Assembly (NCBI GenBank): GCA_965214975.1
Contig: OZ244055.1
Span: 3,239,448 to 3,303,447, forward strand
DNA: 64,000 nt
Direction of reading: 5' to 3'
Source: Alphaproteobacteria bacterium
Lineage (GTDB): Bacteria; Pseudomonadota; Alphaproteobacteria; MPNO01; UBA830
Part shown: in pieces, positions 24,659 to 37,320 of the stretch
How positions within the stretch are numbered: position 1 is the first letter of the stretch
How the letters are laid out: each line of letters opens with the position of its first letter
Notes under the pieces: generated by a model
The model's input: the letters and a program-made list of their open reading frames with translations, nothing else
Database searches by the model: none
What the model was told of the DNA's origin: nothing
Made by a program: the position numbers and the translations under genes

Positions 24659-25252
24659 TCACGGCGTGTCCGGTTCCCGCCGCAGCGCGCTCTCGATCGG
24701 GACGTGCAGGGCCTCGTGGATCCCGTTGTACATTCTCCAGAAGCCCACGACACAGGCGAGCTCCACGATCTGAGGCGGCGTGAGGCGTTCGGCGAGTTCC
24801 GCCAGCAGGGTCTCCGGCACCGTGCCGGGGTCGGGTGTGGCCGCCCGCGCGTAGGCGATCGCCAGCCGTTCCGTGGCGTCCTTCGGCGCGTAGGACGGAT
24901 CGAGAAGCTCGTCGACCTCCCGGTCCGAGAGATCCCAGCCCTCGCCCGGTCCCGGGGAACGGCCGGTCAGCGTGTTGACGTTGTGCGCGACGCAGTACGC
25001 GCTGTCGTTGAGGCGCGAGCAGATGGCGGCGATCCGCCGCTTCAGGGCCGGCTCGAGATGGCCCGAGGGGTCGCGCATCACGGCATCGTTGAGGCGGATC
25101 AGGGCGGCGAGGATCTCGGGCCGGTGCGCGTAAAGCTTCAGCGCGTTCGGCATGAAGCCCATGCGTTTCTCGTAGGCGGCGAGCGGCGCGCGCAGCTCGC
25201 CGCCGAGCGCGCCGGGGTCGGCGTAGGGAATGAAGGGGGCGTTCTCGTTCAT
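24659..25252 (-). CDS. Carboxymuconolactone decarboxylase family (AhpD-like) protein.
   Basis: 197 aa with an AhpD-like core (…AICSRLNDSAYCVAHN…). Confidence 0.8.
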   Translation of the reverse strand: MNENAPFIPYADPGALGGELRAPLAAYEKRMGFMPNALKLYAHRPEILAALIRLNDAVMRDPSGHLEPALKRRIAAICSRLNDSAYCVAHNVNTLTGRSPGPGEGWDLSDREVDELLDPSYAPKDATERLAIAYARAATPDPGTVPETLLAELAERLTPPQIVELACVVGFWRMYNGIHEALHVPIESALRREPDTP

Positions 25253-25309
25253 GTCCGTTTCCGAAGACGGAGCGTGGCCGACCGGGCCGGCTCCTTCGCT
25301 CGCGAGGCG

Positions 25310-26716
25310 CTAGAGATAGTCCTCGAGCCTGGCCTTCCCCCAGTTGAGCGGGAAGGCCTGCCGGTAGTCCTCGCCGCCGCGGTGCGGCTTGGCGGTGGCG
25401 TCGAAACCGATCTTTCCGACGAGGCGGAACGGCTCGTGGCCCGGCAGGGGCGCGGCCGAGGGGTCGTACGGGGAGCCGCGCGTTCCGGGCACGACGATGA
25501 CGTCCTGCGCCGGATCCACGCGGGTCGCGAGGGCGTGGTAGACCGCGCCCGGGTCGTCGACGTCGGTGTCGGGGCTGACGGCGACGACCATCTTGGTGTT
25601 GAGCCAGGGCGCGCCCATGGCCTGCATCAGCGCGTCGTTGACGAGACCCGGCCGCGGGTAGTCCACCTGCAGGATGCAGCTCAGCGCCGCGCCCCAGGTC
25701 GGGAAGCGCACGTCGCGGACGTCGAGGCCGATTTCGGAAACGCGGTTGTAGAGCACGGCCTCGTGGCACAGCCGCGGCAACGTCTGATGGTCGGTGTCCG
25801 GCACCGTCTGGTGGTTGCGGTAGATCGGGCGGTCCCGCCGCATCGTGACGGCCCTGACCTCGATCGGGGGGAGTTCCTGGCGCCGCGGAAGGAAATAGCC
25901 GCTTGGCGCGTTGACTCCGCCGGCGCTTTCGGTCCGGGAAAGGTCGACCACGGCCTCGACGACGATTTCGGCATGCGCGGGGACGCGGAGGTCGACGGTC
26001 TCGCAGGGGGTCATCTCGACGTCCCTGTCCATCACGGTTCCGACCATCTCGAGTTCGCCCCACAGATCCATGTGCAGCCCCGAGAAATTGGCCATGATCT
26101 CGTAGGCCGGGGGCAGGCCGAACACGAGGGCGATCGGCATTTCCGCGTGCCCGGCGTCGCGGTGCTTCCGCATGATCAGGTGGGTGTGCGGCGTGGCGAA
26201 GCTGATCACGCCGTGGCGCGGGCCGAGCGGCGTGGTGCCGGCATGGGACGAGTTGAGGAATCCGGTCTCCGGATCCTTGACGACGTTCATGGCGGAGATG
26301 TAGCGCCGGCCCTCCTCGGCGGAGTGGACCGGCACCGGAAGGTCGAGCCAGTTCGCCTCGGCCCCGGTGCGGACGATCTCCTTGACGGGGCCCGTGGGAA
26401 CGTCGACGAAGCCGCGCGGCGGCATGCGCAGGCGCTGCGCCAGCGTGGGAAGGTAGTCCTCGCGTTCGACGCCGAGCGCGCGGCACTGCGACCAGCGGTG
26501 CTTGACGAGGATGTCGCACATCCGGAAACCGGGGTGCTCCTCGATGTTCTCGAACAGGATCGGCCCTTCGGACTGGGCCGACAGGGCGCCCACGTCGTCG
26601 ATCGAGACCGGCCGCTCGACGACGGTCAGGATGTCGCGGTTGGTCTCGAGATAGCCCCGCAGGTCGCGGTCGGGAACCCGGTTGCCGCCGCGCGCGGCCG
26701 CGGGCGCGCCGGTCAC
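25310..26716 (-). CDS. UbiD-family (prenylated-FMN-dependent) aromatic acid decarboxylase.
   Basis: About 469 aa with the UbiD-type N-terminus (DLRGYLETNRDILTVVERPVSID...PILFENIEEHPG) and a conserved C-terminal region. The GTG at 26716 overlaps the stop of the upstream Rieske gene (GTGA). Confidence 0.85.
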   Translation of the reverse strand: MTGAPAAARGGNRVPDRDLRGYLETNRDILTVVERPVSIDDVGALSAQSEGPILFENIEEHPGFRMCDILVKHRWSQCRALGVEREDYLPTLAQRLRMPPRGFVDVPTGPVKEIVRTGAEANWLDLPVPVHSAEEGRRYISAMNVVKDPETGFLNSSHAGTTPLGPRHGVISFATPHTHLIMRKHRDAGHAEMPIALVFGLPPAYEIMANFSGLHMDLWGELEMVGTVMDRDVEMTPCETVDLRVPAHAEIVVEAVVDLSRTESAGGVNAPSGYFLPRRQELPPIEVRAVTMRRDRPIYRNHQTVPDTDHQTLPRLCHEAVLYNRVSEIGLDVRDVRFPTWGAALSCILQVDYPRPGLVNDALMQAMGAPWLNTKMVVAVSPDTDVDDPGAVYHALATRVDPAQDVIVVPGTRGSPYDPSAAPLPGHEPFRLVGKIGFDATAKPHRGGEDYRQAFPLNWGKARLEDYL

Positions 26717-27735
26717 GGCGCCTCTGCCCTGACCAGCCGGTCGATCCTGCGGCGGAACAGCCCCGCCGAGGCGTCGAGGTCGAGGCCGGTTCGGGTGCGG
26801 CCGGGGTGGCGTTCCTCCTCTTCCTGGATCGCCTCGAGAATGTCCTTGTCCTCGGCGAACGCGACGCGGAACTGCTCGCTGATGCCTTCGCCGACCGCGG
26901 GGTCGTCGACGCCGAAATCCCGGACGTGCATCCAGCGGTCGATCGTCCTGTTCTCCTCGACGGGCGTCATGAAATGGCAGGAGAACACCTGGATGCGCTG
27001 CTCGCCACCGTCTTCGAGACCGCCCGTGCCGGCGGCCGCGCCGCCGAAATCGATGATCGCGGTCGACGGCACGTGCATCAGGTAGCGCTGCCACATGTCG
27101 ACCCGGCCGCCGTGGTTGCCGAAGGCGCGGATGAACCCCGTCGGCGCGGAATCGACGGTCAGGCGCTCGGTCAGGACGCCCCAGGAGGTTTCCTCGTGGG
27201 TGACCGGCGCGTTGATCTCGTCGGGATTCCCGAGGGTCGACGGGTGAACGTAGTTGACGTGGGTCGGGTCGCACAGGTTGTCGCAGAGCAGCAGGTAGTT
27301 CGCCGTCACGTCGAGGGCGTCCCCGTGGACGGCCGCCCAGCCGTCCCGGCGGTACTGGGGCAGGTCGGGGATGGCCGACGGATCGGCCCTGCCGGGGTCG
27401 CCCATCCAGGTCCAGACCAGGCCCAGACGCTCGGCGGCCGGGTAGGTCCGCACCGTGCAGTCCGCCGGGACCGAGTCCTGGGTCGGCGCCCCCTTGCAGG
27501 CGCCGTCGCCGCCGAAGACCAGCCCGTGATAGCCGCATTGCAGGTCGCCGTCGCGGACGCGGCCCTTCGAGAGCGGCAGGAAACGGTGCGGGCAGAGATC
27601 CTCGAGCGCGCGGGGTTGTCCGTCGCCGTCGCGCCACAGAACGATCCGGTCGCCGAGAACGGTTGCCGCGACCGGCGCGGAATCGAGGTCGCGGGCGAAG
27701 CCCGCGACGTACCAGGCGTTCCGGACGAAGGTCAT
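26713..27735 (-). CDS. Rieske [2Fe-2S] non-heme-iron oxygenase alpha subunit, VanA/phthalate-family (includes GbcA/CntA-type demethylases).
   Basis: 340 aa with a Rieske motif CPHRFLPLSKGRV...CGYHGLVF, and the N-terminus MTFVRNAWYVAGFARDL typical of VanA-like enzymes. Confidence 0.85.
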   Translation of the reverse strand: MTFVRNAWYVAGFARDLDSAPVAATVLGDRIVLWRDGDGQPRALEDLCPHRFLPLSKGRVRDGDLQCGYHGLVFGGDGACKGAPTQDSVPADCTVRTYPAAERLGLVWTWMGDPGRADPSAIPDLPQYRRDGWAAVHGDALDVTANYLLLCDNLCDPTHVNYVHPSTLGNPDEINAPVTHEETSWGVLTERLTVDSAPTGFIRAFGNHGGRVDMWQRYLMHVPSTAIIDFGGAAAGTGGLEDGGEQRIQVFSCHFMTPVEENRTIDRWMHVRDFGVDDPAVGEGISEQFRVAFAEDKDILEAIQEEEERHPGRTRTGLDLDASAGLFRRRIDRLVRAEAP

Positions 27736-27826
27736 CGCGCGCCTCCTGTTCGAGGGAGGGGAACGGAGCCGCGATCATGCGGTTCCCCGGCGGCGGCGTC
27801 AATGCCGGTTCCGCCGGAAGCGGCTC

Positions 27827-28660
27827 TCACGACAGCCCGAACCCGTGGCCGCGCAGGAACCCGGAAAACCCGGCCCGCTCGGGAACCGAGAGCTGGCGCG
27901 CCGCGTTCTCGGACCAGGTGCAGCGTTCCGCGACCCCGTACCTGTCGGCGTGGCGCTGGTTTTCGGGCGCGATCGGCACGGCCTCGTGGCGTTGCGCGTC
28001 GTAGGCGTCGACCGCCGCCCGAAGGCCGGTGTCGTCGTAGACCTCTCGATGCACGACGACCTCGGACGGCAGCCGGGCGTTGACGCGGCCCTCCGCCACG
28101 GGCCAGCCGAGGGTGAGTCCCGCGACGGGGAACACGCCGTCGGGCAGCTCGAGCGCCTCGGAGAACCCGTCGATGCGGTTGCGCACGTCGCTGATGGGCG
28201 CGCAACCGAGCCCGGAGGCCTCGGCCGCGGTGACGAAGCACTGCATCGCCATCGCGGCGTCGACGACCGCGTTCAGGAATCCGTCCATGCCGTCGTTCCG
28301 GAACTCGTGGCCGCGGAACCCGGCGATCCGGCGCATGCGCCGCATGTCCGCGCAGAACGTCGCGAAGACCGGGCAGTGCCGCAGGTGTCCGGTGCCCGGG
28401 CAGAGCTCGGCGAGGCGTGCGAGCCGGGCGGGCTCGGATGTCACGACGATCGAGTACTGCTGAAGGTTGGACTTGGTGGGGGCGGACTGCGCGCAGGCGA
28501 GCAGAACCTCGAGAAGTTCGGGCGCGACCGGCCGGTCGGCGTAGCGCCGGATGCAGCGGCGCGACAGCAGTCCGGACACGGTCTCCGGCACCGGATCCAG
28601 GCGGTCCGGCCCGGTGTCGTGGCCGTAGCGCCGGTTGATCAGTTCGCGGGTGGCGGTCAT
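27827..28660 (-). CDS. Nitroreductase-family flavoprotein.
   Basis: 277 aa with the nitroreductase-fold motif SAPTKSNLQQYS. It is the first gene of the nitroreductase-Rieske-UbiD-AhpD unit. Confidence 0.75.
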   Translation of the reverse strand: MTATRELINRRYGHDTGPDRLDPVPETVSGLLSRRCIRRYADRPVAPELLEVLLACAQSAPTKSNLQQYSIVVTSEPARLARLAELCPGTGHLRHCPVFATFCADMRRMRRIAGFRGHEFRNDGMDGFLNAVVDAAMAMQCFVTAAEASGLGCAPISDVRNRIDGFSEALELPDGVFPVAGLTLGWPVAEGRVNARLPSEVVVHREVYDDTGLRAAVDAYDAQRHEAVPIAPENQRHADRYGVAERCTWSENAARQLSVPERAGFSGFLRGHGFGLS

Positions 28661-28756
28661 GGTCGGATCTCCTCCGGAAACGCTCTCCGGCAGGCTTGCC
28701 GGACGGCGTCCGCGCCAGTATAGAGAGCCTCGTCACCAGCTCACGGGCGCTCTCGC

Positions 28757-29503
28757 GTGGCGGAAACCAGACATGCCGACGCCCCGTCGGAGATCGTGGT
28801 CGTTCACAGTTCGGACCTCCATGTCGACGACGGCTACACCGAACGCAAGTGGTCGGGCGACGGCGCCGGACCTCTGGCGGCGGTGCTGGAGACCGCGTCG
28901 GCGCTCGATGCCGGGGTGCTGCTGCTCGCGGGCGACGTGTTCGAGCACAACCGGCTGCCGCCGGCTCTTCTGCAAAGAGCCGCCGACCTCCTCGGCGAGG
29001 CTCCCTGCCCCGTCGTCATGCTGCCCGGCAATCACGATCCGCTGATGGAGGGGTCGGTGTGGCACCGCGGCGGGTTCGCGGACATCGACGGCATCCACGT
29101 GCTCGGCGTCGAGGGGGAGCGGGCGGCGTTCCCCGATCTCGACCTGGAGATCTGGGGCCGCGCGCACCGGGACTATTCGGACATGGCGCCGCTCGCCGAG
29201 CCCGGGCCGCGGTCGCGGCGCTGGCACGTCGTCGCCGGGCACGGGCACTTCGTCGAGGAGCGTCCGCCCGCCGGCGGGCTGAATCCGTCCTGGCTGATTT
29301 CCGGAGACGAGATCGAGGGCACGGCGGCGGACTACGTCGCGCTTGGCCACTGGAATCTCTCGGTGCAGGTCGGGAACGGCAGCGTGCCGGCATGGTATTC
29401 GGGCTCTCCCGACCTTGCCGGAACGGTCAACGCGGTCAGGCTGGGCGCGGACGGGGCGGTCGCGGTGGCGCGGGAACCCGTTCCCGGAACGCCGGCCGGC
29501 TGA
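28757..29503 (+). CDS. Calcineurin-like metallophosphoesterase.
   Basis: It has the MPE motifs HSSDLHVDD, GDVFEH, LPGNHD and GHGH. The start is uncertain: the track GTG at 28757, or an internal GTG giving MVVHSSDLH. Confidence 0.7.
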   Translation: MAETRHADAPSEIVVVHSSDLHVDDGYTERKWSGDGAGPLAAVLETASALDAGVLLLAGDVFEHNRLPPALLQRAADLLGEAPCPVVMLPGNHDPLMEGSVWHRGGFADIDGIHVLGVEGERAAFPDLDLEIWGRAHRDYSDMAPLAEPGPRSRRWHVVAGHGHFVEERPPAGGLNPSWLISGDEIEGTAADYVALGHWNLSVQVGNGSVPAWYSGSPDLAGTVNAVRLGADGAVAVAREPVPGTPAG

Positions 29504-29528: not shown

Positions 29529-30605
29529 TCAGGCGGCCCGGCTCTCGGTGGCGATCGCTTCGGCGACCATGCGCCGGAGCGCGAGGCCGGGGCCGTCGAC
29601 GTTGATGTCCACCCAGTTCCGCGGATTGTGGGCATGGCGCTTGATGTTGGCCTGCTGGGCGGAGAGGATGTCGACGTCTTCCTGGAAGGCGCCGCGCAAC
29701 TCGACGCGGAACATCTCGTCCACCTCGGCGTCGTCGAGCGCGAAGTTCCTCGAATGGGCGTAGAAGTACCGGCAGCTGCGGTCGGTTTCCGGAGTGATGG
29801 CGTTGAGATTGTAGAACTCGAACCCCGTGCCGTTGCGCCCGCCGGGGCGACGGCCGATCGAGTCCGGATGATCGCCCGGCGACGCGCCGCAGCCGGCGGG
29901 CAGGCAGCCGACCCACACCGTGTTGCAGCTCGGAACCTGGCCCTCGGCGTACTGCCAGCGGTCGATGTTGTCCTCGAAGCCGCCGAATCTCGCGTAGAGC
30001 GGCGCGGGCGCCGAGTCCATGATCCACCGGATCATGCGCACCGTCCGGTCGCCTCGGGTGACGACGATCGGAAAATCGGGAACCGCTTCGGTTCCGATGT
30101 TGCGGATGTGGACGTAGGCGAGATGGCTGAGGTCGAGAAGGTTGTCGTTGAACAGCTCGTAATGGCAGGGGACATGGAACGGCGGGTCGCCCTTCACCAC
30201 CCGCCAGTCGGGGTGGTCCATGACCTTCCAGTCGGGCAGCAGCGATTCGTCCGCCAGTTCGGGGGTGCCCATCCACAGCCAGACGAGCTGGTGTTTCTCG
30301 AGCGCCGGCCAGGCATGCACCGTGGCGCCCGGCGGGATCCGGGCCTGGCCCGGAACGCGGATGCAGGCGCCGGAGGCGTCGAATCTCAGGCCGTGGTATC
30401 CGCATTCGATGACGTCGCCCTCGACCCGCCCCTGCGAGAGAGGCAGGTTGCGGTGGCAGCAGCGATCCTCGAGGGCGACCGCCCGGCCGGCGCCGTCGCG
30501 GAACAGGACGACGGGTTCGCCGAGCACGGTCCGCGCGAGTGGCGTCTCGTCGACCTCGTGGTTCCAGGCGGCCGCGTACCAAGCGTTTCTCAGGAATCCG
30601 TCCAT
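29529..30605 (-). CDS. Second VanA-like Rieske [2Fe-2S] oxygenase alpha subunit (paralog of the one at 26713..27735).
   Basis: 358 aa, MDGFLRNAWYAAAWNHEV...CCHRNLPLSQGRV...CGYHGLRF. The start was moved to the ATG at 30605; the track N-terminal extension is low-complexity. Confidence 0.85.
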   Translation of the reverse strand: MDGFLRNAWYAAAWNHEVDETPLARTVLGEPVVLFRDGAGRAVALEDRCCHRNLPLSQGRVEGDVIECGYHGLRFDASGACIRVPGQARIPPGATVHAWPALEKHQLVWLWMGTPELADESLLPDWKVMDHPDWRVVKGDPPFHVPCHYELFNDNLLDLSHLAYVHIRNIGTEAVPDFPIVVTRGDRTVRMIRWIMDSAPAPLYARFGGFEDNIDRWQYAEGQVPSCNTVWVGCLPAGCGASPGDHPDSIGRRPGGRNGTGFEFYNLNAITPETDRSCRYFYAHSRNFALDDAEVDEMFRVELRGAFQEDVDILSAQQANIKRHAHNPRNWVDINVDGPGLALRRMVAEAIATESRAA

Positions 30606-30891
30606 GGAGCCGCTCCGATCTCCGTCCGGCCGCAGGGTATCCGGCCGGCCGGGGCTTCGGCAACAGGTTCCGGAGCCGTCCGCCCGGCGGCCGGAACGGA
30701 AACCGGGCGGCTGGCGACCGGGATCGGCGTCGGGGCCCGTCCCGTGAAGCGCAGCTCCGCGGCCACTCGGGCCGGAAGACGGGTTGCGGGCGGCGGGCGG
30801 CTTCACTCGCCCCGGAAAGGCGCGCCGACGCCAGGTCGAGGGACGTCCCGGCCAGGGCCGGGACGTCTCCCGGTCCGCGCCCGCGCGCGGT

Positions 30892-31647
30892 TCACTGGTT
30901 GTGTCTGCCCCCGTCGACGTTGAAGGTCTGTCCGGTCACGAAATCGCTGTCCTCGCTCGCCAGGAACAGCAGCATCCCGATCAGGTCCTCCGGCACCATG
31001 TCCCGCTTGATGGCGCGGGCCTGCAGTGTCGGTGCGCGGGCGACATGAAGATCGGGGTGGTTCCGGACGCCTTCGCTCTCGGTCAGGCCGGGCGCGATGC
31101 AGTTCACCATGATGTTCTTGTCGCCGAACTCGCGCGAAGCGGAGCGCGTGAAAGCGATGACCGCGCCCTTCGAGCAGACGTAGTGAGCCAGGCCGGGTCC
31201 GCCATAGTAGAAGGTGCCGGAGCTGATGTTCACGATCTTGCCTCGTCCGTTCTTGAGCATGCTGGGGACGACGGCCTTGGTGGCCTGCAGCGTCCCGCGC
31301 ACGTTGACCGTCATCACCCGGTCCCAGTCCTCGTTCGAGATCTGCATGATCGGGGTGAACCTCAGCTCGGCGAAGAGCGCCGCGTTGTTGACCAGGATCT
31401 CGATCGGCCCGAACGCCGCTTCGGCGGCTCCGACGAGGTCGGAGAGCGACCCGTCATCGGTCACGTCGGCGATTCTTCCTATCGCCTCGCCGCCGGCGTT
31501 GCCGATCTCGTCGACCACGCGGGACGGATCGGCGACATCGGAAACCACGACCCGGGCGCCCTCGTCCGCAAGGGCCTTCGCGTAGGTCTCCCCGATGCCC
31601 TGGGCGGCACCGGTCACGACCGCGACCTTTCCATCAAGCCTGCTCAT
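30892..31647 (-). CDS. Short-chain dehydrogenase/reductase (SDR).
   Basis: 251 aa with TGAAQGIG, NNAA and the YxxxK catalytic motif (YVCSKGA). Confidence 0.9.
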   Translation of the reverse strand: MSRLDGKVAVVTGAAQGIGETYAKALADEGARVVVSDVADPSRVVDEIGNAGGEAIGRIADVTDDGSLSDLVGAAEAAFGPIEILVNNAALFAELRFTPIMQISNEDWDRVMTVNVRGTLQATKAVVPSMLKNGRGKIVNISSGTFYYGGPGLAHYVCSKGAVIAFTRSASREFGDKNIMVNCIAPGLTESEGVRNHPDLHVARAPTLQARAIKRDMVPEDLIGMLLFLASEDSDFVTGQTFNVDGGRHNQ

Positions 31648-31726
31648 TCTCTCTCTCCTTCGTTGTTGTTCCGGCCGTCCTGCCGCCCCGAAGCCCGGGA
31701 ACCGGGGTGAGGGCGGAGGCCGGCCG

Positions 31727-33085
31727 TCATGATCCCAACATCGTGTTGGGCAGGAACATCGCGATCTGCGGAAACGCGACCAGCAGGGCGATCATCGCCG
31801 CCATCGCGAACCAGAACGGCCAGATTCCCCTGAATATCGTGCGCATCGGCACCTCCGGCGCGATCGACTTCACGACGAAGACGTTGATGCCGACCGGCGG
31901 CGAGATCATGCCCATTTCCAGGACGATCACGACGATGATCCCGAACCAGATCAGATCCCACTGGAGCTGGGTCGCCAGCGCCATCACGACCGGGATGGTG
32001 AGGACGAGCATCGCGATGCCCTCCAGGAAGGTTCCGAGAAACATGTAGATCAGGATGACGACGACCAGCACGCCGACCTCGCCGATCGGGAGCGAGGTCA
32101 GGAAGGTCACCATGTCGCCGGCAAGCCCGGTCAGGGACATGAAGGGAATGAAGACGAACGCGCCGACGATGATCAGAAAGACGGTCGCCGTCGCCTTCAT
32201 GGTTTGCAGGACCACGGCGCGCAGCCGCCGGACGTCGAGCGAACGCCGCCAGAGCGCGACCAGGAACGTGAGAAGCGCGCCCACCGCGGACGCCTCGACG
32301 GGCGTGAAGAAGCCGGTGTACATCCCGCCGATCGTGATTCCGACCACCAGCACGATCGGGACCGCGGCGACGACCGAGCTGCGGCGCTCGCCGGGCGTCG
32401 CGGGGTTGCCGGCCGGCCCCTTCTCGGGGCGCAACCGGACGGTGATCCACACCGCGCCGATGAACAGCAGCGTGAGCACGATGCCCGGCACGATGCCGGC
32501 CATGAACAGCCGGCCGACCGACTGGTCGGTCAGCACCGCGTAGATGATCATCCCTCCCGACGGCGGGATCAGGAAGCCCAGCGTGCCGCCGGCCGCCACC
32601 GCGCCGGTCGAAAGCTCCGGCGCGTACCTGAACCGGTTCATCTCGGGCAGCGCGACGCGGCCCATCGTGACCGCGGAGGCCAGCGAGGATCCCGACAGCG
32701 CCGCGAACCCGGCGCAGGCCGAAATCGTCGCCGAGGCGAGGCCGCCGCGGAAGTGGCCGATCCAGCGGTGCGCCGCGGTGAAAAGGTCGCGCGACATGCC
32801 CGAGACGCCCGCGAGATTGCCCATCAGAACGAACATCGGGATGACCAGCAGGTTGAAGTTCGAGGCGACCTCGAACGCCTCGCCCGACAGGTTGGACATA
32901 GCCGTGTTCCAGCCCCGCGCCCAGGCCTGGTCGCCGGCCATGCCCAGGCCGATGAACCGGTTCGCCTGAGCGCAGAGCGTGCCGAACGTGCCGACGAGAA
33001 TCATCGCGAGCGCGACCGGGAACCGGAGCGCCAGGAGTCCGAACAGAACGAGCAGCCCGATCACTCCGATGAGCGACATGCTCAT
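31727..33085 (-). CDS. dctM: TRAP transporter large permease DctM.
   Basis: 452 aa polytopic permease (MSMSLIGVIGLLVLFG...). The start is coupled to the dctQ stop. The track fuses it to an upstream frame. Confidence 0.9.
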   Translation of the reverse strand: MSMSLIGVIGLLVLFGLLALRFPVALAMILVGTFGTLCAQANRFIGLGMAGDQAWARGWNTAMSNLSGEAFEVASNFNLLVIPMFVLMGNLAGVSGMSRDLFTAAHRWIGHFRGGLASATISACAGFAALSGSSLASAVTMGRVALPEMNRFRYAPELSTGAVAAGGTLGFLIPPSGGMIIYAVLTDQSVGRLFMAGIVPGIVLTLLFIGAVWITVRLRPEKGPAGNPATPGERRSSVVAAVPIVLVVGITIGGMYTGFFTPVEASAVGALLTFLVALWRRSLDVRRLRAVVLQTMKATATVFLIIVGAFVFIPFMSLTGLAGDMVTFLTSLPIGEVGVLVVVILIYMFLGTFLEGIAMLVLTIPVVMALATQLQWDLIWFGIIVVIVLEMGMISPPVGINVFVVKSIAPEVPMRTIFRGIWPFWFAMAAMIALLVAFPQIAMFLPNTMLGS

Positions 33086-33624
33086 CGCGCATTCCCGTCC
33101 GCCTCGGGCATCGGCGCGAGATCCCGATCGGCGAGCAACAGGACCAGATCGGCGATCAGGATCGCGACGTACAGCACGATCATCGCGCCCATGGCGTAGT
33201 AGAACGGCTCGTACGAGATCAGGAGCTGCTGCGTTGCCTCGCCGAATTCCCGGGCCGATGCGCCCGCCTTGAACAGCCGCCAGGCCAGGGCCGCGACCAG
33301 GGGGACGGCGAGCAGTTTCATCGCGGCCAGGGACCAGCGCGCGAAGGCCTTCGACATCCAGGTTTCGAAGATCTCGATCTCGATATGCGCGCCGACGCGG
33401 CCGCCATAGGGAATGGCGACCGCGACCAGGATGACGAGATTGAGCACCAGGATGTCCTCGGCGCCGACGATCGGGTCGTTGAGAACCTTGCGCATCACGA
33501 TGACGTTCCAGCTCGTCAGCAGGACCATGACCGCAAGTCCGATCCCGCCGACGAGGAACGTCAGCCGCTCTATCAGTCGATCGATCCGGCGCAGCCAGCC
33601 CGGCCGGGTGTCGCCGGCGCCCAC
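33082..33624 (-). CDS. dctQ: TRAP transporter small permease DctQ.
   Basis: About 180 aa (…LRRIDRLIERLTFLVGGIGLAVMVLLTSWNVIVMRKVLN…). It lies between dctP and dctM. The GTG start near 33624 is approximate. Confidence 0.65.
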   Translation of the reverse strand: MGAGDTRPGWLRRIDRLIERLTFLVGGIGLAVMVLLTSWNVIVMRKVLNDPIVGAEDILVLNLVILVAVAIPYGGRVGAHIEIEIFETWMSKAFARWSLAAMKLLAVPLVAALAWRLFKAGASAREFGEATQQLLISYEPFYYAMGAMIVLYVAILIADLVLLLADRDLAPMPEADGNAR

Positions 33625-33638
33625 GACGTCTGTGCTCT

Positions 33639-34670
33639 CTACCTGTTGATCGTCTCGTAGATCTCGCGCGCGTTCCCGATGCCGCGCTTTTCGTAGTCCG
33701 CGAACAGGATCTCGAGCCCGCGCTGGACCGCGGCATCCATCTTGGCCCGTTCCCCGGCGGACACCTGGATCCATTTGACCCGCGCCATCTTGGGCGATGT
33801 CCGCATGAGCTTCTCCGCGCCTCGGTCGGCGCCGTCGAAGGTCTTCGCGCCCCTGCGCGACATCGTCACGCCCGAGAGGTCGTCGATGATCTTGCGGTGT
33901 TCGCGCGACAGCCCCTGGTAGCGTTCCTTGTTCATCGCGACGAACGTGACCGCGAACTGGACCGGGACGTTGCCGACCACGAACTTGGCGACGTCCCAGA
34001 AGTTCCAGGGCTGGGTGATGTTGCTGAACGCGGAGTACGCTCCATCGATCGTGCCGGTCGAAAGGCCGGTGTACATCCGCGTCACCGGCATCTGCACCGG
34101 CACCGCTCCCATCGCCTTCACGATCGGGGTCGTCATCGCCGCGTAGGGAACGAGCTTCGCTCCGCGCAGGCCGTCCATGGTCGAGACGTTCCGGGTCGCG
34201 GCGATCAGGGCGCCGGCGACCGTGAACACGGCCATCGCCTTGACGGCCTTGTACTCCTGCGCGAGATGGCGGTCGTAGACTCTCCACAGCCGCTCGGTCG
34301 ACTCCGGGGCCGTCCTCGCCTTGCCCGGCGGGATGATCAGCATCGAGCGCGGGAACAGCGTGGCGGTGTAGGCCTGGATCCCGAAGGTGATGTCGGCCAC
34401 GCCCTCGACCACCCGCTTCCACTGCTGGACGGGCCCGGCGCCGAGCTGGCCGGCGGGGAAGAGCTTCATGGTCAGGCTGCCGTTGGAGCGCTTGGCGATC
34501 TCCTCGCCGAACCATCCGAACAGGTACTTGTTGATGTGGTGCTGCGGCGGCATGAACGTGGCGACGGACAGTTCCTCGGCCGCCGACGGAGAACTTGCCA
34601 GAAGCGGCGCGATGACGAGGAACGCCCTGGCGATCCGGCGGCGAGTAGCGCTGTTCGAAAACTGAGCCAT
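33639..34670 (-). CDS. dctP: TRAP transporter substrate-binding protein DctP (copy 1).
   Basis: 343 aa with a signal peptide (MAQFSNSATRRRIARAFLVIAPLLASSPSAAEE), DctP family. The ATG is at 34670. Confidence 0.9.
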   Translation of the reverse strand: MAQFSNSATRRRIARAFLVIAPLLASSPSAAEELSVATFMPPQHHINKYLFGWFGEEIAKRSNGSLTMKLFPAGQLGAGPVQQWKRVVEGVADITFGIQAYTATLFPRSMLIIPPGKARTAPESTERLWRVYDRHLAQEYKAVKAMAVFTVAGALIAATRNVSTMDGLRGAKLVPYAAMTTPIVKAMGAVPVQMPVTRMYTGLSTGTIDGAYSAFSNITQPWNFWDVAKFVVGNVPVQFAVTFVAMNKERYQGLSREHRKIIDDLSGVTMSRRGAKTFDGADRGAEKLMRTSPKMARVKWIQVSAGERAKMDAAVQRGLEILFADYEKRGIGNAREIYETINR

Positions 34671-34794
34671 GAATCTTCTCCCGATTTGCGGCCTGGAGTC
34701 GTTGCGTCCGCGATGGGCGACGGCGAGAACCGCTGTTTCGATCGCGGTTCGAAAGGCATCGTAGCGGAAACGGGAACAATGAAAATGACGAAAT

Positions 34795-34940
34795 GCCAAT
34801 ACGACATATAGATCCCGACTATACCCCGTGAGGCCGGGAACGTCCTGGCGTCGGGCGGCGGCCATCGGCATTCGCCGGTCGGAGTGGCGTGCCGGCGTGT
34901 CAGGTCGCGTGCCGGTTGCGCCGCTTCGGAAAAAGTCGGC
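34795..34940 (-). pseudogene. Remnant of the LysR regulator 3' end (last ~48 codons) carried along with the duplication.
   Basis: It translates to ...FSEAAQPARDLTRRHATPTGECRWPPPDARTFPASRGIVGIYMSY, versus the intact LysR C-terminus FSEAAQKVFNLIRQHIDKSLRSGEYRWLPPESKAFSASQHIGNAYMLY. The stop has been lost. Confidence 0.45.
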
Positions 34941-35039
34941 AGGCGTTTCGGATCGCGAGCACGACCCCTCGGGGCCGCGGGCGGTTCCGTCGCGACCGGG
35001 GTCACGATGCCGGGGACCGGGACGTCTTCCGCGTCGACG

Positions 35040-35200
35040 AGCGGGTTGCGGGAACCTTGGGAATCCCGATGACGTTCAGGCTCGTCGGCGGGACCATGAC
35101 CGCAAGTCATGTCCCGCCGACGAGGAACGTCAGCCGCTCCGTCGGCCGGTCGATCGGGCGCGGCCGGCCCGGCCGGGTGTCGCCGGCGGCGTCGGCGTTC
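35040..35200 (-). pseudogene. Remnant of the dctQ 5' end upstream of dctP copy 2.
   Basis: 35041-35160 matches 33481-33600 (dctQ N-terminal coding) with many substitutions. No intact ORF. Confidence 0.4.
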
Positions 35201-35201
35201 C

Positions 35202-36233
35202 CTACCTGTTGATCGTCTCGTAGATCTCGCGCGCGTTCCCGATGCCGCGCTTTTCGTAGTCCGCGAACAGGATCTCGAGCCCGCGCTGGACCGCGGCATC
35301 CATCCTGGCCCGCTCCCCGGCGGACACCTGGACCCATTTGACCCGCGCCATCTTGGGCGAGGTCCGCATGAGCTCCTCCGAGCGTCGATCGGCGCCGTCG
35401 AAGGCTTCGGCGCCCTTGCGCGACATGGTCACGCCCGAGAGGTCGTCGATGATCTTGCGGTGTTCGCGCGACAGCCCCTGGTAGCGTTCCCTGTTCATCG
35501 CGACGAACGTGACCGCGAACTGGACCGGGACGTTGCCGACCACGAACTTGGCGACGTCCCAGAAGTTCCATGGCTGGGTGATGTTGTTGAACGAGGAGTA
35601 GGCTGCATCGATGGTGCCGGTCGAAAGGCCGGTGTACATCTGCGTCACCGGCATCTGCACCGGCACCGCTCCCATCGCCTTCACGATCGGGGTCGTCATC
35701 GTCGCGTAGGGAACGAGCTTCGCTCCGCGCAGGCCGTCCAGGGTCGAGACGTTCCGGGTCGAGGCGATCAGGCTGCCAGCGACCGTGAACACGCCCATCG
35801 TCTTGACGGCCTTGTATTCCTGCGCGAGATGGCGGTCGTAGACTCTCCACAGCCGCTCGGTCGACTCCCGGGCCGTCCTCGCCTTGCCCGGCGGGATGAT
35901 CAGCATCGAGCGCGGGAACAGCGTGGCGGTGTAGGCCTGGATCCCGAAGGTGATGTCGGCCACGCCCTCGACCACCCGCTTCCACTGCTGGACGGGCCCG
36001 GCGCCGAGCTGGCCGGCGGGGAAGAGCTTCATGGTCAGGCTGCCGTTGGAGCGCTTGGCGATTTCCTCGCCGAACCATCCGAACAGGTTCTTGTTGATGT
36101 GGTGCTGCGGCGGCATGAACGTGGCGACGGACAGGTCCTCGGCTGCCGACGGGGAACTTGCCAGAAGCGGCGCGATGACCAGGAACGCCCTGGCGATCCG
36201 GCGGCGACTTGAGTTGTTCGACAGCTGAACCAT
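35202..36233 (-). CDS. dctP: TRAP transporter substrate-binding protein DctP (copy 2).
   Basis: 343 aa, MVQLSNNSSRRRIARAFLVIAPLLASSPSAAED..., roughly 95% identical to copy 1. The ATG is at 36233. Confidence 0.9.
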   Translation of the reverse strand: MVQLSNNSSRRRIARAFLVIAPLLASSPSAAEDLSVATFMPPQHHINKNLFGWFGEEIAKRSNGSLTMKLFPAGQLGAGPVQQWKRVVEGVADITFGIQAYTATLFPRSMLIIPPGKARTARESTERLWRVYDRHLAQEYKAVKTMGVFTVAGSLIASTRNVSTLDGLRGAKLVPYATMTTPIVKAMGAVPVQMPVTQMYTGLSTGTIDAAYSSFNNITQPWNFWDVAKFVVGNVPVQFAVTFVAMNRERYQGLSREHRKIIDDLSGVTMSRKGAEAFDGADRRSEELMRTSPKMARVKWVQVSAGERARMDAAVQRGLEILFADYEKRGIGNAREIYETINR

Positions 36234-36357
36234 GAATTCCTCCCGTTCTGCAGCGTGGAGTCGCTGCGTTTGCGATGACGGCGGCGACAAGCGCCGGTCC
36301 GAACGCGGTCCGAGAGGCATCGTCGACGGAAACGCGAACGATGAAAATGACGAAATT

Positions 36358-37320
36358 CTAATACAACATATAGGCATTGCCTATATGCTGGGAGGCCGAG
36401 AACGCCTTCGATTCGGGTGGCAGCCACCGGTACTCGCCCGATCTGAGCGACTTGTCGATGTGCTGCCGTATCAGGTTGAAGACTTTCTGCGCCGCTTCGG
36501 AAAAGGCCGGCACGGGTTTCGAGTTCAGGTAGAGCCGGCACCAGATGCTGGGCTTCTCGATGTCATGGCACCGCAGCTCGCCCTTCAGGATCTGGTTGTG
36601 CAGGAACAGGTACGGGCCGATGAAGCCCCGTTGTCCGTTGGCGACCAGTTCCTGGCGGAGCAGCATCGAGTGAATCTGAAGCGGCCTGGTCAGGGGAACG
36701 TCCAGCTCTTTCGCGGCGCGGGGCGCGATGCCGCATTTGTCGAAAACGAGCGGCAGGTTCGCGGCGACCTCGAAGGGAACGCTGTCCGGAAGATTCCCGA
36801 TGAGTTCCTGGCTTCCGATCAGGCACATCCGGTCAAGATAGAGGGGGAAGGATTCGAACCGTTCGTCCTCCATCGGCGCGAACGACAGGGCGCAGTCGAT
36901 CTCGTCGGCGACCAGGGCAAGCGACAGGTTCTCGGTGAACTCGACGAAAATCGAGATCTCGAGATCCGGGACGAGCGCTTCCGCGGCTTCCAGCACGGTC
37001 GACATCACGGCGATGCCGATCGACGGAATGACGCCGATTCTCAGAACCTGCCTCGGCGCGGTTCGCAGATGGTCGACCGATTGCCGGGCGATCTCGAGGC
37101 GCCGCAGCACGTCCCGAACGTGCGAGAGATAGATGGAGCCCGCTTCCGTCAGTTCCACGCCTCGCGAATGACGACGGAAAAGCCGGAGGCCGAACTCGTC
37201 CTCGAGCTTCTTGATCTGCACCCCCAGAGTCGGCTGGGAGACGTTCAAGGCCTCCGCCGCGGCGGTGAAGCTGCCGTGTTCGGCCACCTTGCGGAAATAG
37301 CGAAGCTGTCTCAATTCCAT
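36358..37320 (-). CDS. LysR-family transcriptional regulator.
   Basis: 320 aa from MELRQLRYFRKVAEHGSFTAAAEALNVSQPTLGVQIKKLE (helix-turn-helix) followed by a LysR substrate-binding domain. The start was moved to the ATG at 37320; the track starts 26 codons upstream. Confidence 0.85.
   Translation of the reverse strand: MELRQLRYFRKVAEHGSFTAAAEALNVSQPTLGVQIKKLEDEFGLRLFRRHSRGVELTEAGSIYLSHVRDVLRRLEIARQSVDHLRTAPRQVLRIGVIPSIGIAVMSTVLEAAEALVPDLEISIFVEFTENLSLALVADEIDCALSFAPMEDERFESFPLYLDRMCLIGSQELIGNLPDSVPFEVAANLPLVFDKCGIAPRAAKELDVPLTRPLQIHSMLLRQELVANGQRGFIGPYLFLHNQILKGELRCHDIEKPSIWCRLYLNSKPVPAFSEAAQKVFNLIRQHIDKSLRSGEYRWLPPESKAFSASQHIGNAYMLY
36367..36387. promoter_or_regulatory. Perfect 21-bp palindrome CATATAGGCA-T-TGCCTATATG overlapping the last codons of the LysR gene, upstream of dctP copy 2.
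   Basis: Two 10-bp arms that are exact reverse complements. The corresponding sequence in repeat copy A is degraded (catatagatcccgactatac). Confidence 0.3.

What the first reader, a model, noticed from the sequence alone, without database searches (positions are those of the whole stretch)
24659..37320. LysR-controlled island: UbiD-family decarboxylase, two VanA-like Rieske oxygenases, a nitroreductase flavoprotein, a metallophosphoesterase, an SDR and a TRAP transporter, with no canonical reductase partner and no UbiX.
Two paralogous VanA/phthalate-family Rieske oxygenase alpha subunits (26713..27735 and 29529..30605) normally need a VanB/GbcB-type FNR-ferredoxin reductase. None is encoded here.

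The gene immediately upstream of Rieske-1 is instead a nitroreductase-fold flavoprotein. Rieske-1's stop is coupled (GTGA) to a UbiD-family prFMN decarboxylase, and no ubiX flavin prenyltransferase is in the window. A calcineurin-like metallophosphoesterase sits between the two oxygenase units, which is odd for aromatic catabolism.

Uptake is probably by the adjacent TRAP system with two DctP paralogs, under a LysR regulator. So the substrate is probably a carboxylated aromatic or a quaternary amine (the family includes GbcA/CntA/Stc2 demethylases) that is oxidatively demethylated or hydroxylated and then decarboxylated.

The electron-transfer route is non-standard; the nitroreductase-family protein may be a recruited reductase or a BluB-like flavin-modifying enzyme.
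Basis: partly seen in the sequence, partly recalled or inferred. Interest (0 to 1): 0.6.

Follow-up and report, generated by a model that had tools for sequence, protein, structure and literature searches.

The report
Mosaic aromatic-catabolism locus, atypical UbiD

Summary
Every gene call in the finding is confirmed, and no VanB-type reductase or UbiX was found among the called genes of the 64 kb window. The "single LysR-controlled island" reading does not hold, because comparative genomics splits the region into three modules.

- **Module A:** an 82-aa protein with no known family (g34), divergent from Rieske-2, plus a metallophosphoesterase and an NfsA-type flavin reductase. This arrangement is conserved in three lineages.
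- **Module B:** Rieske-1, a UbiD-like protein and an AhpD/CMD-like protein. The UbiD-like/CMD-like pair is adjacent in 79 of 88 related loci.
- **Module C:** a 7-kb block (LysR, duplicated dctP, dctQ, dctM, SDR) inserted between g34 and Rieske-2. It is present only in this strain.

Both Rieske proteins are intact oxygenases of the DdmC/VanA type, not the GbcA/CntA/Stc2 type. The flavoprotein resembles NfsA/Frp flavin reductases, not BluB.

The UbiD homologue keeps the Mn/phosphate ligands but lacks the Glu-Arg-Glu catalytic network, as does its whole clade. Nine related loci carry ubiX next to it, so its absence here is ordinary.

The function remains unproven. The most likely role is catabolism of an aromatic or heteroaromatic acid, with electron donors supplied from elsewhere in the genome.

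The parts
24659..25252 (-). AhpD/CMD-like 197-aa protein, the near-constant partner of the UbiD-like gene
   Evidence: Weak matches to Pfam CMD and to TIGR01926 'peroxidase-related enzyme'. Best PDB matches are uncharacterised peroxidase-related proteins and the debrominase Bmp8. It lies within 2.5 kb of the UbiD-like gene in 79 of 88 loci. A Y86-C87-x-x-H90 motif is invariant.
25310..26716 (-). UbiD-like protein (468 aa) lacking the Glu-Arg-Glu catalytic network
   Evidence: Pfam UbiD + UbiD_C. Best structure match is HmfF 6h6v. The Fdc1 Mn/phosphate ligands are kept (N155, H177, E221). R173 is replaced by G160, and E277 and E282 by Ala. The Arg-to-Gly change holds in all 20 aligned clade members, and neither Glu position carries a conserved acidic residue.
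26713..27735 (-). Rieske-1, a DdmC/VanA-type Rieske non-haem iron oxygenase
   Evidence: Pfam Rieske + VanA_C. Matches DdmC at E 7.6e-49, with H160/H165/D294 and the Rieske Cys/His ligands conserved. Its stop overlaps the UbiD-like start codon as GTGA. A Rieske-1-like gene lies within 2.5 kb of the UbiD-like gene in 13 loci.
27827..28660 (-). NfsA/Frp-type NAD(P)H:flavin oxidoreductase (277 aa)
   Evidence: Pfam Nitroreductase. NCBIfam NfsA at E 3e-38 over the full length, though below the curated cutoff. PDB matches YcnD, NfrA1/2, NfsA and Frp. Syntenic with the metallophosphoesterase and Rieske-2 in about 25 marine contigs, L006 and L170.
28757..29503 (+). Calcineurin-like metallophosphoesterase (248 aa), divergent from the NfsA-like gene and convergent with Rieske-2
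   Evidence: Pfam Metallophos. Only weak N-terminal similarity to SbcD/Mre11. 58-65% identical orthologues occupy the same position in marine contigs.
29529..30605 (-). Rieske-2, a DdmC/VanA-type Rieske oxygenase
   Evidence: Pfam Rieske + VanA_C. Matches DdmC at E 1.3e-53. Orthologues of 70% identity or more had g34 divergently upstream in every neighbourhood examined.
30608..37620 (.). 7.0-kb strain-specific block inserted into the g34/Rieske-2 intergenic region
   Evidence: blastn against L006 and L019 shows about 100 bp in place of these 7013 bp. GC is 0.664 against 0.704 in the flank, but GC3 is similar. No flanking repeats were found.
30892..31647 (-). SDR oxidoreductase (part of the inserted block)
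   Evidence: Pfam adh_short. No specific NCBIfam model passes its cutoff.
31727..33085 (-). TRAP large permease DctM
   Evidence: TIGR00786 passes its cutoff; Pfam DctM.
33082..33624 (-). TRAP small permease DctQ
   Evidence: Pfam DctQ.
33639..34670 (-). TRAP solute-binding protein DctP, copy a
   Evidence: Pfam DctP. 92% identical to copy b.
35202..36233 (-). TRAP solute-binding protein DctP, copy b (1.56-kb tandem duplicate)
   Evidence: Pfam DctP. Direct repeats with 1562-1571 bp spacing.
36358..37320 (-). LysR-type regulator at the head of the inserted TRAP block
   Evidence: Pfam HTH_1 + LysR_substrate. No specific NCBIfam equivalog. Absent from L006 and L019.
37621..37869 (+). g34: conserved 82-aa helical protein with no known family, the ancestral divergent neighbour of Rieske-2
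   Evidence: No Pfam or NCBIfam match. 785 homologue clusters; the 120 best are 67-100% identical and the few that carry a name are called 'hypothetical'. Next to Rieske-2 in L006, L019, L169, L170, L171 and marine contigs. AlphaFold2 model pLDDT 77, four helices, no PDB fold match.
38455..40800 (-). Xanthine-dehydrogenase-family molybdenum-binding large subunit, with no adjacent FeS or FAD subunit genes
   Evidence: Pfam Ald_Xan_dh_C + MoCoBD_1/2. No NCBIfam equivalog passes its cutoff. Paralogues recur near Rieske-2/g34 and near UbiD-like genes.

Best explanation
The region is a mosaic of three gene modules in a Defluviicoccus-like alphaproteobacterium. It most probably serves catabolism of an aromatic or N-heteroaromatic carboxylic acid.

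**Module B (28660 to 24659, minus strand).** The NfsA-like reductase gene is followed by Rieske-1, whose stop codon overlaps the start of the UbiD-like gene. The AhpD/CMD-like gene follows 57 bp later. Inferred: Rieske-1 hydroxylates or O-demethylates the substrate, and the UbiD-like/CMD-like pair carries out the next step.

That pair is a conserved two-protein unit. The UbiD-like protein probably still binds a prenylated-FMN-type cofactor, since it keeps the Mn/phosphate ligands and ubiX sits next to it in some genomes. It has lost the Glu-Arg-Glu acid-base network, so any (de)carboxylation would need other residues, possibly its own conserved His/Cys/Asp residues or the Cys-His of the partner. 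prFMN would come from a ubiX encoded elsewhere in the genome.

**Module A (g34 divergent from Rieske-2; metallophosphoesterase divergent from NfsA).** This is a second, older unit built around an intact DdmC-type oxygenase. Its electrons come either from unlinked general ferredoxin/reductase proteins or, less certainly, from the NfsA-type flavin reductase.

**Module C (LysR, dctP, dctP', dctQ, dctM, SDR).** This is a later insertion into the g34/Rieske-2 intergenic region. It may add uptake and its own regulation, but it is not the ancestral regulator of the other genes.

Shown: the domain identities, the residue losses, the synteny statistics and the insertion. Inferred: the substrate class, the order of reactions, the cofactor and the electron donors.
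For: - **Gene identities:**
- **Separate transcription units:** follows from the strands and gaps.
- **The 7-kb block is an insertion:**, together with g34/Rieske-2 adjacency in five other lineages.
- **UbiD-like/CMD-like pairing:** 79 of 88 loci. LysR was found near the UbiD-like gene in 0 loci and NfsA in 2.
- **Different oxygenases upstream of the pair:** a VanA-like Rieske in about 24 loci (two de novo clusters), HpaB in 21 loci.
- **Other recurrent neighbours:** transporters, an OYE-like flavin oxidoreductase, amidase, isochorismatase-like hydrolases and molybdenum hydroxylases.
- **Loss of R173/E277/E282 with N168/H191/E233 kept:**. These residues are required in Fdc1 (PMC5818171).
- **ubiX adjacent in 9 loci:** includes one UbiD-like-MFS-CMD-UbiX operon.
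- **Intact Rieske metal ligands and DdmC as closest structure:**
- **NfsA-type identity:**
- **Synteny of the NfsA-like gene, the metallophosphoesterase and Rieske-2:**
Against: - No substrate, activity or expression data exist for any of these proteins.
- The loss of the catalytic triad argues against decarboxylation as such.
- ubiX adjacency is seen in only about 10% of loci, and seven of those nine share one arrangement and may be one clade.
- Rieske-2 orthologues occur without the NfsA-like gene or the metallophosphoesterase (L169, L171), so neither is obligatory.
- The AlphaFold2 model of the UbiD-like protein was too poor (pLDDT 56) to place the new conserved residues in an active site.
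- Nearly all related loci are metagenome-derived (assembled genomes or contigs), so some synteny reflects relatedness rather than selection.
Confidence: 0.55

Rival explanations
1. One LysR-controlled catabolic island in which a TRAP system imports a carboxylated aromatic or a quaternary amine. Two Rieske oxygenases are reduced by a recruited nitroreductase-fold protein, and a standard prFMN UbiD decarboxylase finishes the job.
For: All the genes are physically contiguous and mostly on one strand. The NfsA-like gene is syntenic with Rieske-2 in other lineages.
Against: - The LysR-TRAP-SDR block is absent from the closest relatives and from every other lineage carrying the remaining genes.
- The metallophosphoesterase on the opposite strand interrupts any single transcript.
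- The UbiD homologue lacks the catalytic triad.
- The Rieske proteins are DdmC-like, not GbcA/CntA/Stc2-like.
Confidence: 0.1
2. The NfsA-type flavin reductase is the dedicated electron donor of Rieske-2, and perhaps Rieske-1. This would be a two-component Rieske/flavin-reductase system like PrnD/PrnF, and would explain the missing VanB-type partner.
For: - The order Rieske-2, metallophosphoesterase, NfsA is conserved in the window clade, in L170 and in about 25 marine contigs, while the outer flanks differ.
- No VanB-type reductase ORF (Fer2 motif plus RxYS) was found in any fetched locus.
- There is a precedent: the Rieske N-oxygenase PrnD is supplied by the flavin reductase PrnF (PMC6769897, citing Lee and Zhao 2007).
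Against: - Rieske-2 orthologues in L169 and L171/172 lack an adjacent NfsA-like gene.
- In L170 the NfsA-like gene is truncated and sits beside a luciferase-like monooxygenase, a more usual client.
- PrnF has a different fold (HpaC-like).
- NfsA homologues of 58% identity or less have no Rieske neighbour.
Confidence: 0.25
3. The NfsA-like protein is a pathway enzyme rather than an electron donor. It would reduce a quinone, nitro group or similar intermediate made by the oxygenase, like the nitroreductase-family quinone reductases in chlorophenol clusters. The last comparison is from my own knowledge.
For: Its closest characterised relatives are NfsA, NfrA and YcnD, which reduce nitro compounds, quinones and free flavins. 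The conserved synteny with Rieske-2 fits this reading equally well.
Against: There is no direct evidence. Nothing is known about the products of Rieske-2.
Confidence: 0.25
4. The UbiD-like protein is not an enzyme. It would be a non-catalytic paralogue, for example a prFMN carrier or maturation factor, or a scaffold for the AhpD-like partner, which would do the chemistry.
For: All three residues needed for catalysis and maturation in Fdc1 are lost (PMC5818171). The partner is nearly obligate and keeps an invariant Cys-His motif.
Against: - Conservation is very high, 65-87% identity across orders, with many invariant His/Cys/Asp residues.
- By alignment to Fdc1, several of these (D309, H310, C317, H318) fall at or next to positions 323-332. 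From my own knowledge these line the Fdc1 substrate pocket. That fits a remodelled active site better than a decayed one.
- Canonical UbiD genes are not consistently nearby for it to serve.
Confidence: 0.2
5. The NfsA-like protein and the metallophosphoesterase supply the two UbiX substrates. NfsA would make FMNH2 and the phosphoesterase would make dimethylallyl monophosphate from DMAPP, so they would be cofactor-supply genes for the UbiD-like protein.
For: In this window both genes lie directly upstream of the Rieske-1/UbiD-like operon. The activities fit their families. The chemistry of UbiX substrates is from my own knowledge.
Against: In marine contigs and in L170 the two genes travel with Rieske-2 and g34, not with the UbiD-like gene. 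Only 2 of 88 UbiD-like loci have an NfsA-like gene nearby.
Confidence: 0.05

Closest known systems
HmfF (2,5-furandicarboxylate decarboxylase) and Fdc1/UbiD prFMN-dependent decarboxylases
   Same: Same two-domain UbiD architecture (Pfam UbiD + UbiD_C). HmfF is the best structural relative by sequence (E 1e-32 for the single protein, 1e-49 with the clade profile). The Mn2+/phosphate ligands N168/H191/E233 are conserved. ubiX is adjacent in some relatives.
   Different: About 30% identity or less. The Arg173/Glu277/Glu282 network that defines catalysis and cofactor maturation is absent in the whole clade. The clade also has a near-obligate AhpD/CMD-like partner, which is not a feature of the characterised UbiD enzymes I know of (no paper found).
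DdmC (dicamba O-demethylase oxygenase) and VanA (vanillate O-demethylase oxygenase)
   Same: Rieske + VanA_C architecture. All Rieske and mononuclear-iron ligands are conserved. DdmC is the best structural match for both proteins.
   Different: No DdmA/DdmB- or VanB-type electron-transfer genes are nearby. No NCBIfam equivalog passes its cutoff, so the substrate is unknown. Rieske-2 has a conserved 82-aa divergent neighbour with no counterpart in the systems I know.
PrnD/PrnF two-component arylamine oxygenase
   Same: A Rieske oxygenase with no FNR-type reductase, served by an NAD(P)H:flavin reductase encoded next to it.
   Different: PrnF is an HpaC-type split-barrel reductase, whereas this protein has the NfsA/nitroreductase fold. 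The coupling here is inferred from synteny only.
AhpD/CMD superfamily 'peroxidase-related' proteins and the debrominase Bmp8
   Same: About 190-aa AhpD-like protein with a conserved Cys-His motif. PDB matches 2pfx and 6ohj at E 4e-7 to 1e-5.
   Different: It has a single Cys (Y-C-x-x-H) in place of the CxxC that I recall as typical of AhpD. It scores below the TIGR01926 cutoff. Its pairing with a UbiD-like protein does not appear in the literature searched.

Membership tests
UbiD family of prFMN-dependent (de)carboxylases | UbiD fold (Pfam UbiD + UbiD_C domains) | tested here: met
   E 1.6e-31 and 1.1e-21, both above the gathering scores. Forty PDB UbiD-family hits.
UbiD family of prFMN-dependent (de)carboxylases | Mn2+/K+ and cofactor-phosphate ligands (Fdc1 N168, H191, E233) | tested here: met
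   Window N155, H177 and E221 align to them and are invariant in the clade.
UbiD family of prFMN-dependent (de)carboxylases | Glu-Arg-Glu catalytic network (Fdc1 E277, R173, E282) | tested here: not met
   R173 is Gly in all 20 aligned clade members. In the window E277 and E282 are Ala, and neither position carries a conserved acidic residue in the clade. Relatives of 40% identity or less keep N..R and EGPFGE.
UbiD family of prFMN-dependent (de)carboxylases | A UbiX flavin prenyltransferase available | tested here: inconclusive
   None found in the window. Adjacent in 9 related loci. The rest of this genome could not be searched.
UbiD family of prFMN-dependent (de)carboxylases | prFMN binding and decarboxylase activity | not testable with these tools
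   Needs biochemistry.
VanA/DdmC-type (phthalate-family) Rieske oxygenases | Rieske CxH...CxxH cluster ligands | tested here: met
   CPHR...CGYHG in Rieske-1 and CCHR...CGYHG in Rieske-2.
VanA/DdmC-type (phthalate-family) Rieske oxygenases | Mononuclear iron ligands, 2-His-1-carboxylate (DdmC H160, H165, D294), and the VanA_C domain | tested here: met
   All three ligands align in Rieske-1, and the same motifs are present in Rieske-2. VanA_C at E 1e-45.
VanA/DdmC-type (phthalate-family) Rieske oxygenases | Cognate reductase (VanB-type FNR-Fer2, or a ferredoxin plus reductase pair) encoded alongside | tested here: not met
   None among the called genes of the window, and no VanB-type ORF in any fetched related locus. 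The only ferredoxin is an ISC-type Fdx at 45398-45724.
GbcA/CntA/Stc2 quaternary-amine Rieske demethylases | Closest similarity to those enzymes | tested here: not met
   No PDB chain annotated as such appears at E <= 1e-5 for either protein. DdmC is the top hit by more than 15 orders of magnitude.
NfsA/Frp group of nitroreductase-fold NAD(P)H:flavin oxidoreductases | Full-length similarity to NfsA, Frp, NfrA and YcnD | tested here: met
   NF008033 covers residues 26-274 at E 2.9e-38, 131.7 bits, below the 223-bit equivalog cutoff. PDB YcnD at E 4e-35. This places it in the family, not as an NfsA equivalog.
BluB (5,6-dimethylbenzimidazole synthase) | Full-length match to the BluB model | tested here: not met
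   TIGR02476 matches only residues 31-84, at 39 bits against a cutoff of 150.
TRAP transporter | DctP, DctQ and DctM components together | tested here: met
   dctP is duplicated.
LysR-regulated operon covering the whole finding | The regulator is inherited together with the regulated genes | tested here: not met
   LysR is absent from L006, L019 and all other loci carrying the Rieske or UbiD-like genes.

The most novel reading that the evidence does not exclude
The UbiD-like/AhpD-like pair is a new kind of two-protein flavin (probably prFMN) enzyme. The canonical Glu-Arg-Glu acid-base machinery would be replaced by His/Cys/Asp residues, and perhaps by the partner's Cys-His, giving chemistry on oxygenase-derived aromatic or heteroaromatic acids that differs from known UbiD (de)carboxylation. 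Separately, Rieske-2, g34 and the NfsA-like protein could form a Rieske system driven by a nitroreductase-fold flavin reductase.
Probability: 0.3. Interest if true: 0.75.

Novelty: new variant of a known kind. Interest (0 to 1): 0.5.

Why it matters
UbiD enzymes are studied closely as reversible (de)carboxylases for C-H activation and CO2 fixation, and the Glu-Arg-Glu network is treated as a hallmark of the family.

This clade is populous and tightly conserved. The 120 best homologue clusters alone are 66-86% identical, mainly from Alphaproteobacteria of soil, wastewater and sea. It keeps the cofactor-anchoring residues but has replaced the hallmark, and it is almost always paired with an AhpD-like protein. 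That makes it a concrete, testable route to new prFMN or flavin chemistry, or to a new cofactor-handling role.

The conserved g34/Rieske-2/metallophosphoesterase/NfsA module gives a defined candidate for how 'orphan' VanA-type oxygenases obtain electrons.

For annotation, the result warns against three readings. Such genes should not be called furandicarboxylate or hydroxybenzoate decarboxylases. Contiguous genes should not be read as one regulon. An absent neighbouring ubiX or vanB is not an anomaly.

Tried and rejected
- **AlphaFold2 model of the UbiD-like protein.** Built from the 20-sequence clade alignment, it gave pLDDT 56. It was too poor to map residues and was not used.
- **Fold search for g34.** The model was acceptable (pLDDT 77), but the PDB search found nothing with E below 1. 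The afdb50 library was unavailable.
- **Plasmid collection.** tblastn found no relative of the UbiD-like protein above 32% identity.
- **Literature searches.** Searches for UbiD + Rieske + nitroreductase, UbiD-like + carboxymuconolactone decarboxylase, and prFMN-independent UbiD returned nothing. A search for an uncharacterised UbiD clade surfaced nothing on a clade lacking the Glu-Arg-Glu network. The xanthine-8-carboxylate decarboxylase of Cupriavidus LA-1 is a UbiX-dependent, distant UbiD and gives no support for this clade.
- **My first idea that the UbiD-like protein has nothing to do with prFMN.** I softened this after finding ubiX adjacent in nine related loci.
- **BluB-like and GbcA/CntA-like readings.** Rejected on profile and PDB evidence.
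- **'Foreign island' from composition.** Total GC of the 7-kb block is lower, but GC3 matches the host. The insertion is therefore argued from synteny only. No flanking direct or inverted repeats were found.
- **Promoter and terminator scans.** Only weak consensus hits.

Full report

The window is about 71% G+C, so I called genes by third-position G+C bias and then checked each one against profile libraries. Every domain assignment in the finding is correct at the stated coordinates (Pfam; NCBIfam):

| Coordinates | Strand | Protein |
|---|---|---|
| 24659-25252 | - | weak CMD/AhpD-like, 197 aa |
| 25310-26716 | - | UbiD + UbiD_C |
| 26713-27735 | - | Rieske + VanA_C (Rieske-1) |
| 27827-28660 | - | Nitroreductase family |
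| 28757-29503 | + | Metallophos |
| 29529-30605 | - | Rieske + VanA_C (Rieske-2) |
| 30892-31647 | - | SDR |
| 31727-33085 | - | DctM |
| 33082-33624 | - | DctQ |
| 33639-34670 and 35202-36233 | - | DctP, two copies |
| 36358-37320 | - | LysR |

The GTGA overlap between the Rieske-1 stop and the UbiD-like start is in the sequence.

Pfam scans of the other called genes found no FNR/VanB-type reductase and no UbiX (the few not scanned were read by eye from their translations). The probe works, because it hit ubiX at 55-64% identity in other loci.

The only loosely relevant redox genes are an ISC-type 2Fe-2S ferredoxin at 45398-45724 and a pyridine-nucleotide-disulphide oxidoreductase at 58940-60364. 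The left flank (trehalose-phosphatase, GH15, glucokinase, MFS) and the genes beyond the molybdenum-hydroxylase gene on the right (MnmA, dienelactone hydrolase and others) are unrelated.

**2. It is not one island.**

The strand layout already rules out a single transcript. The phosphoesterase (+) is divergent from the NfsA-like gene (96 bp apart) and convergent with Rieske-2 (25 bp apart).

Comparative data go further. The same-strain assembly L001 is 99.7% identical. The two next-closest genomes, L006 and L019, are about 80% identical at DNA level. They carry MoCo, g34, Rieske-2, the phosphoesterase, (NfsA), Rieske-1, UbiD-like, CMD-like and OtsB in the same order. They have about 100 bp where the window has 7013 bp (30608-37620) holding LysR, both dctP copies, dctQ, dctM and the SDR.

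In every other lineage that has a Rieske-2 orthologue, the 82-aa gene g34 (window 37621-37869) sits 100-200 bp upstream and divergent. Adjacency is therefore ancestral, and the window state is an insertion into that intergenic region.

- Total G+C of the block is lower (0.664 against 0.704), but GC3 is host-like.
- No flanking repeats were found.
- The two DctP genes are a 1.56-kb tandem duplication, 92% identical at protein level.
- LysR was found near the UbiD-like gene in 0 of 88 related loci.

**3. Module B: Rieske-1, UbiD-like, CMD-like.**

The UbiD homologue belongs to a tight clade. The 120 best 90%-identity clusters are 66-86% identical. JGI names them '2,5-furandicarboxylate decarboxylase 1'.

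A scan of 185,579 species genomes returned 80 loci, all metagenome-assembled. They are mainly Alphaproteobacteria (Defluviicoccus, Rhodospirillaceae, Xanthobacteraceae, Hyphomicrobiaceae), with a few Beta- and Gammaproteobacteria. tblastn and de novo ORF clustering gave these neighbour counts:

| Neighbour of the UbiD-like gene | Loci |
|---|---|
| 197-aa CMD/AhpD-like gene (within 2.5 kb; 88 loci) | 79 |
| Liv-type ABC transporter | ~30 |
| VanA-like Rieske upstream (two de novo clusters; 13 + 7 within 2.5 kb by tblastn) | ~24 |
| EthD-like protein | 23 |
| HpaB-type monooxygenase | 21 |
| Old-yellow-enzyme-like oxidoreductase | 18 |
| Amidase | 11 |

Examples include isochorismatase, UbiD-like, CMD-like, TRAP (L086); UbiD-like, CMD-like, MarR (L087); and HpaB, UbiD-like, CMD-like (L088).

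In the genome behind L170 and L011, the Rieske-1 orthologue (74% identical) sits beside module A, while the UbiD-like/CMD-like pair lies about 4 Mb away. The parts are therefore separable.

**4. The UbiD-like protein lacks the family's catalytic residues.**

I used alignments to HmfF (6h6v) and to A. niger Fdc1, whose chain numbering I checked residue by residue.

- The Mn2+/phosphate ligands are conserved: N168, H191 and E233 correspond to window N155, H177 and E221.
- R173 is Gly160, within an 'NSSHAG' motif that is invariant or nearly so across the clade.
- E277 and E282 are both Ala in the window. Their stretch reads 'SAGGVNAPSGYF' in place of 'EGPFGE', and neither position carries a conserved acidic residue in the clade.

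An exhaustive HMMER search of 1.84 billion cluster representatives shows where the loss happened.

- Relatives of 40% identity or less keep N..R and EGPFGE.
- An intermediate grade (P0364, P0371, P0372; 39-45% identical) keeps the Arg but has 'DGPxP' without the second Glu.
- The window's clade has lost all three.

In Fdc1, acidic residues at 277 and 282 are required for activity, and R173 is needed for normal cofactor maturation (PMC5818171).

The clade has many invariant His/Cys/Asp residues of its own. By alignment, D309, H310, C317 and H318 fall at or next to Fdc1 positions 323-332, which from my own knowledge line the substrate pocket. This suggests a remodelled site rather than a decayed one. 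That is an inference, because the AlphaFold2 model was too poor to check it (pLDDT 56).

The partner protein keeps an invariant Y-C-x-x-H motif. It resembles uncharacterised 'peroxidase-related' AhpD-fold proteins and the thiol-dependent debrominase Bmp8.

**5. Missing ubiX is not an anomaly.**

Nine related loci have ubiX next to the UbiD-like gene, in three different arrangements:
- upstream on the same strand (seven loci);
- divergent (L061);
- in the operon UbiD-like, MFS, CMD-like, UbiX (L071).

The clade is therefore probably still linked to prenylated FMN. In this genome ubiX would be encoded elsewhere, as it is for E. coli ubiD (my own knowledge). I could not search the rest of the genome.

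**6. The Rieske oxygenases.**

Both have the complete Rieske ligands and the complete mononuclear-iron ligands, aligned to DdmC H160/H165/D294. Both match DdmC best among solved structures, at E 7.6e-49 and 1.3e-53. Next comes an unnamed Rieske protein (7qwt), followed by SxtT, NdmA/B, KshA, carbazole and phthalate dioxygenases.

No chain named as a glycine-betaine, carnitine or stachydrine enzyme appears. No NCBIfam equivalog passes its cutoff. They are O-demethylase/hydroxylase-type enzymes of unknown substrate.

**7. Module A: g34, Rieske-2, phosphoesterase, NfsA-like.**

A metagenome scan with the NfsA-like protein found about 25 marine contigs (NfsA 60-66% identical) that carry some or all of the same order and orientation:
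- g34 (-), 69-73% identical;
- Rieske-2 (+), 73-77%;
- phosphoesterase (-), 58-65%;
- NfsA (+).

In the contigs inspected a RecX-like gene follows, instead of Rieske-1 and the UbiD-like gene. L170 has the same module in a third lineage.

NfsA homologues of 58% identity or less lack the module. Rieske-2 orthologues in L169 and L171/172 have g34 but neither the NfsA-like gene nor the phosphoesterase. The core is therefore g34 plus Rieske-2, and the NfsA-like gene and the phosphoesterase are frequent but dispensable companions.

The flavoprotein is an NfsA/Frp/YcnD-type NAD(P)H:flavin oxidoreductase. It matches BluB over only about 55 residues.

A Rieske oxygenase fed by a flavin reductase has a precedent in PrnD/PrnF, with a different reductase fold (PMC6769897).
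- a quinone- or nitro-reductase role in the pathway itself;
- service to another client. In L170 the neighbour is a luciferase-like monooxygenase.

g34 has 785 homologue clusters. The 120 best are 67-100% identical, and the few that carry a name are 'hypothetical'. It has no Pfam or NCBIfam family. Its model is a four-helix protein (pLDDT 77) with no fold match in the PDB.

Xanthine-dehydrogenase-family molybdenum subunits recur beside both modules: the window gene at 38455-40800, two such genes plus an amidase in L169, and others in L170, L171 and L087. Together with the amidase and isochorismatase-like neighbours, this hints at N-heteroaromatic acids. It is a hint only.

**8. Verdict.**

The absence of vanB and ubiX next to such genes is ordinary, and the LysR/TRAP block is a late addition.

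Two things are unusual and, as far as the searchable literature shows, undescribed:
- a large UbiD clade without the Glu-Arg-Glu network that is almost always paired with an AhpD-like protein;
- the conserved g34/Rieske-2/phosphoesterase/NfsA module.

Function is inferred, not shown.

Noticed in passing
window 33483-36521: A 1.56-kb tandem duplication covers dctP and its flanks. The two DctP proteins are 92% identical. The short-read assembly of the same strain (L001) breaks inside this repeat.
   Followed up: yes
window 37621-37869 (+): An 82-aa protein (g34) has 785 homologue clusters in public data, the 120 best being 67-100% identical, and no Pfam or NCBIfam family. In every neighbourhood examined it was divergently paired with a Rieske-2 orthologue. 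It is a candidate new family, perhaps a small regulator or accessory subunit.
   Followed up: partly
window 38455-40800 (-): A xanthine-dehydrogenase-family molybdenum-binding large subunit stands without adjacent FeS or FAD subunit genes. Paralogues recur near Rieske-2/g34 and near UbiD-like genes in other genomes. L169 has two of them plus an amidase.
   Followed up: partly
window 11925-17848 (+): A complete meta-cleavage lower-pathway operon (aldehyde dehydrogenase, hydratase, acetaldehyde dehydrogenase, aldolase, a second FAA-hydrolase-family decarboxylase or hydratase) is followed by a PhyH-family dioxygenase. It lies about 7 kb to the left of the finding and could take ring-cleavage products.
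   Followed up: no
L071 9947-14432: In a Pseudomonadales metagenome-assembled genome, the UbiD-like gene forms an apparent operon with an MFS transporter, a longer (309-aa) CMD-like protein and UbiX. This is the clearest link between this clade and prFMN.
   Followed up: partly
L170 8090-13413: In a related genome, SnoaL-like, luciferase-like monooxygenase and NIPSNAP genes sit between a truncated NfsA-like gene and the Rieske-1 orthologue. The UbiD-like/CMD-like pair is about 4 Mb away on the same chromosome (L011).
   Followed up: partly
window 50692-60364 (-): A second cluster holds two AMP-binding ligases, an amidase, a PEP-mutase/isocitrate-lyase-family protein, a glutaredoxin-domain protein, a glyoxalase-like protein, a zinc alcohol dehydrogenase and a pyridine-nucleotide-disulphide oxidoreductase. 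It may be another catabolic unit.
   Followed up: no
window 8268-11135 (+) versus 9086-10114 and 10787-11818 (-): A long Arg-rich plus-strand ORF is probably spurious. The real genes on the minus strand there include ZnuA-like and ABC-3 permease genes.
   Followed up: partly
P0364, P0371, P0372 (relatives of the UbiD-like protein, 39-45% identical): An intermediate grade of UbiD homologues keeps the Arg but has 'DGPxP' in place of 'EGPFGE'. The catalytic network therefore appears to have been lost stepwise.
   Followed up: partly
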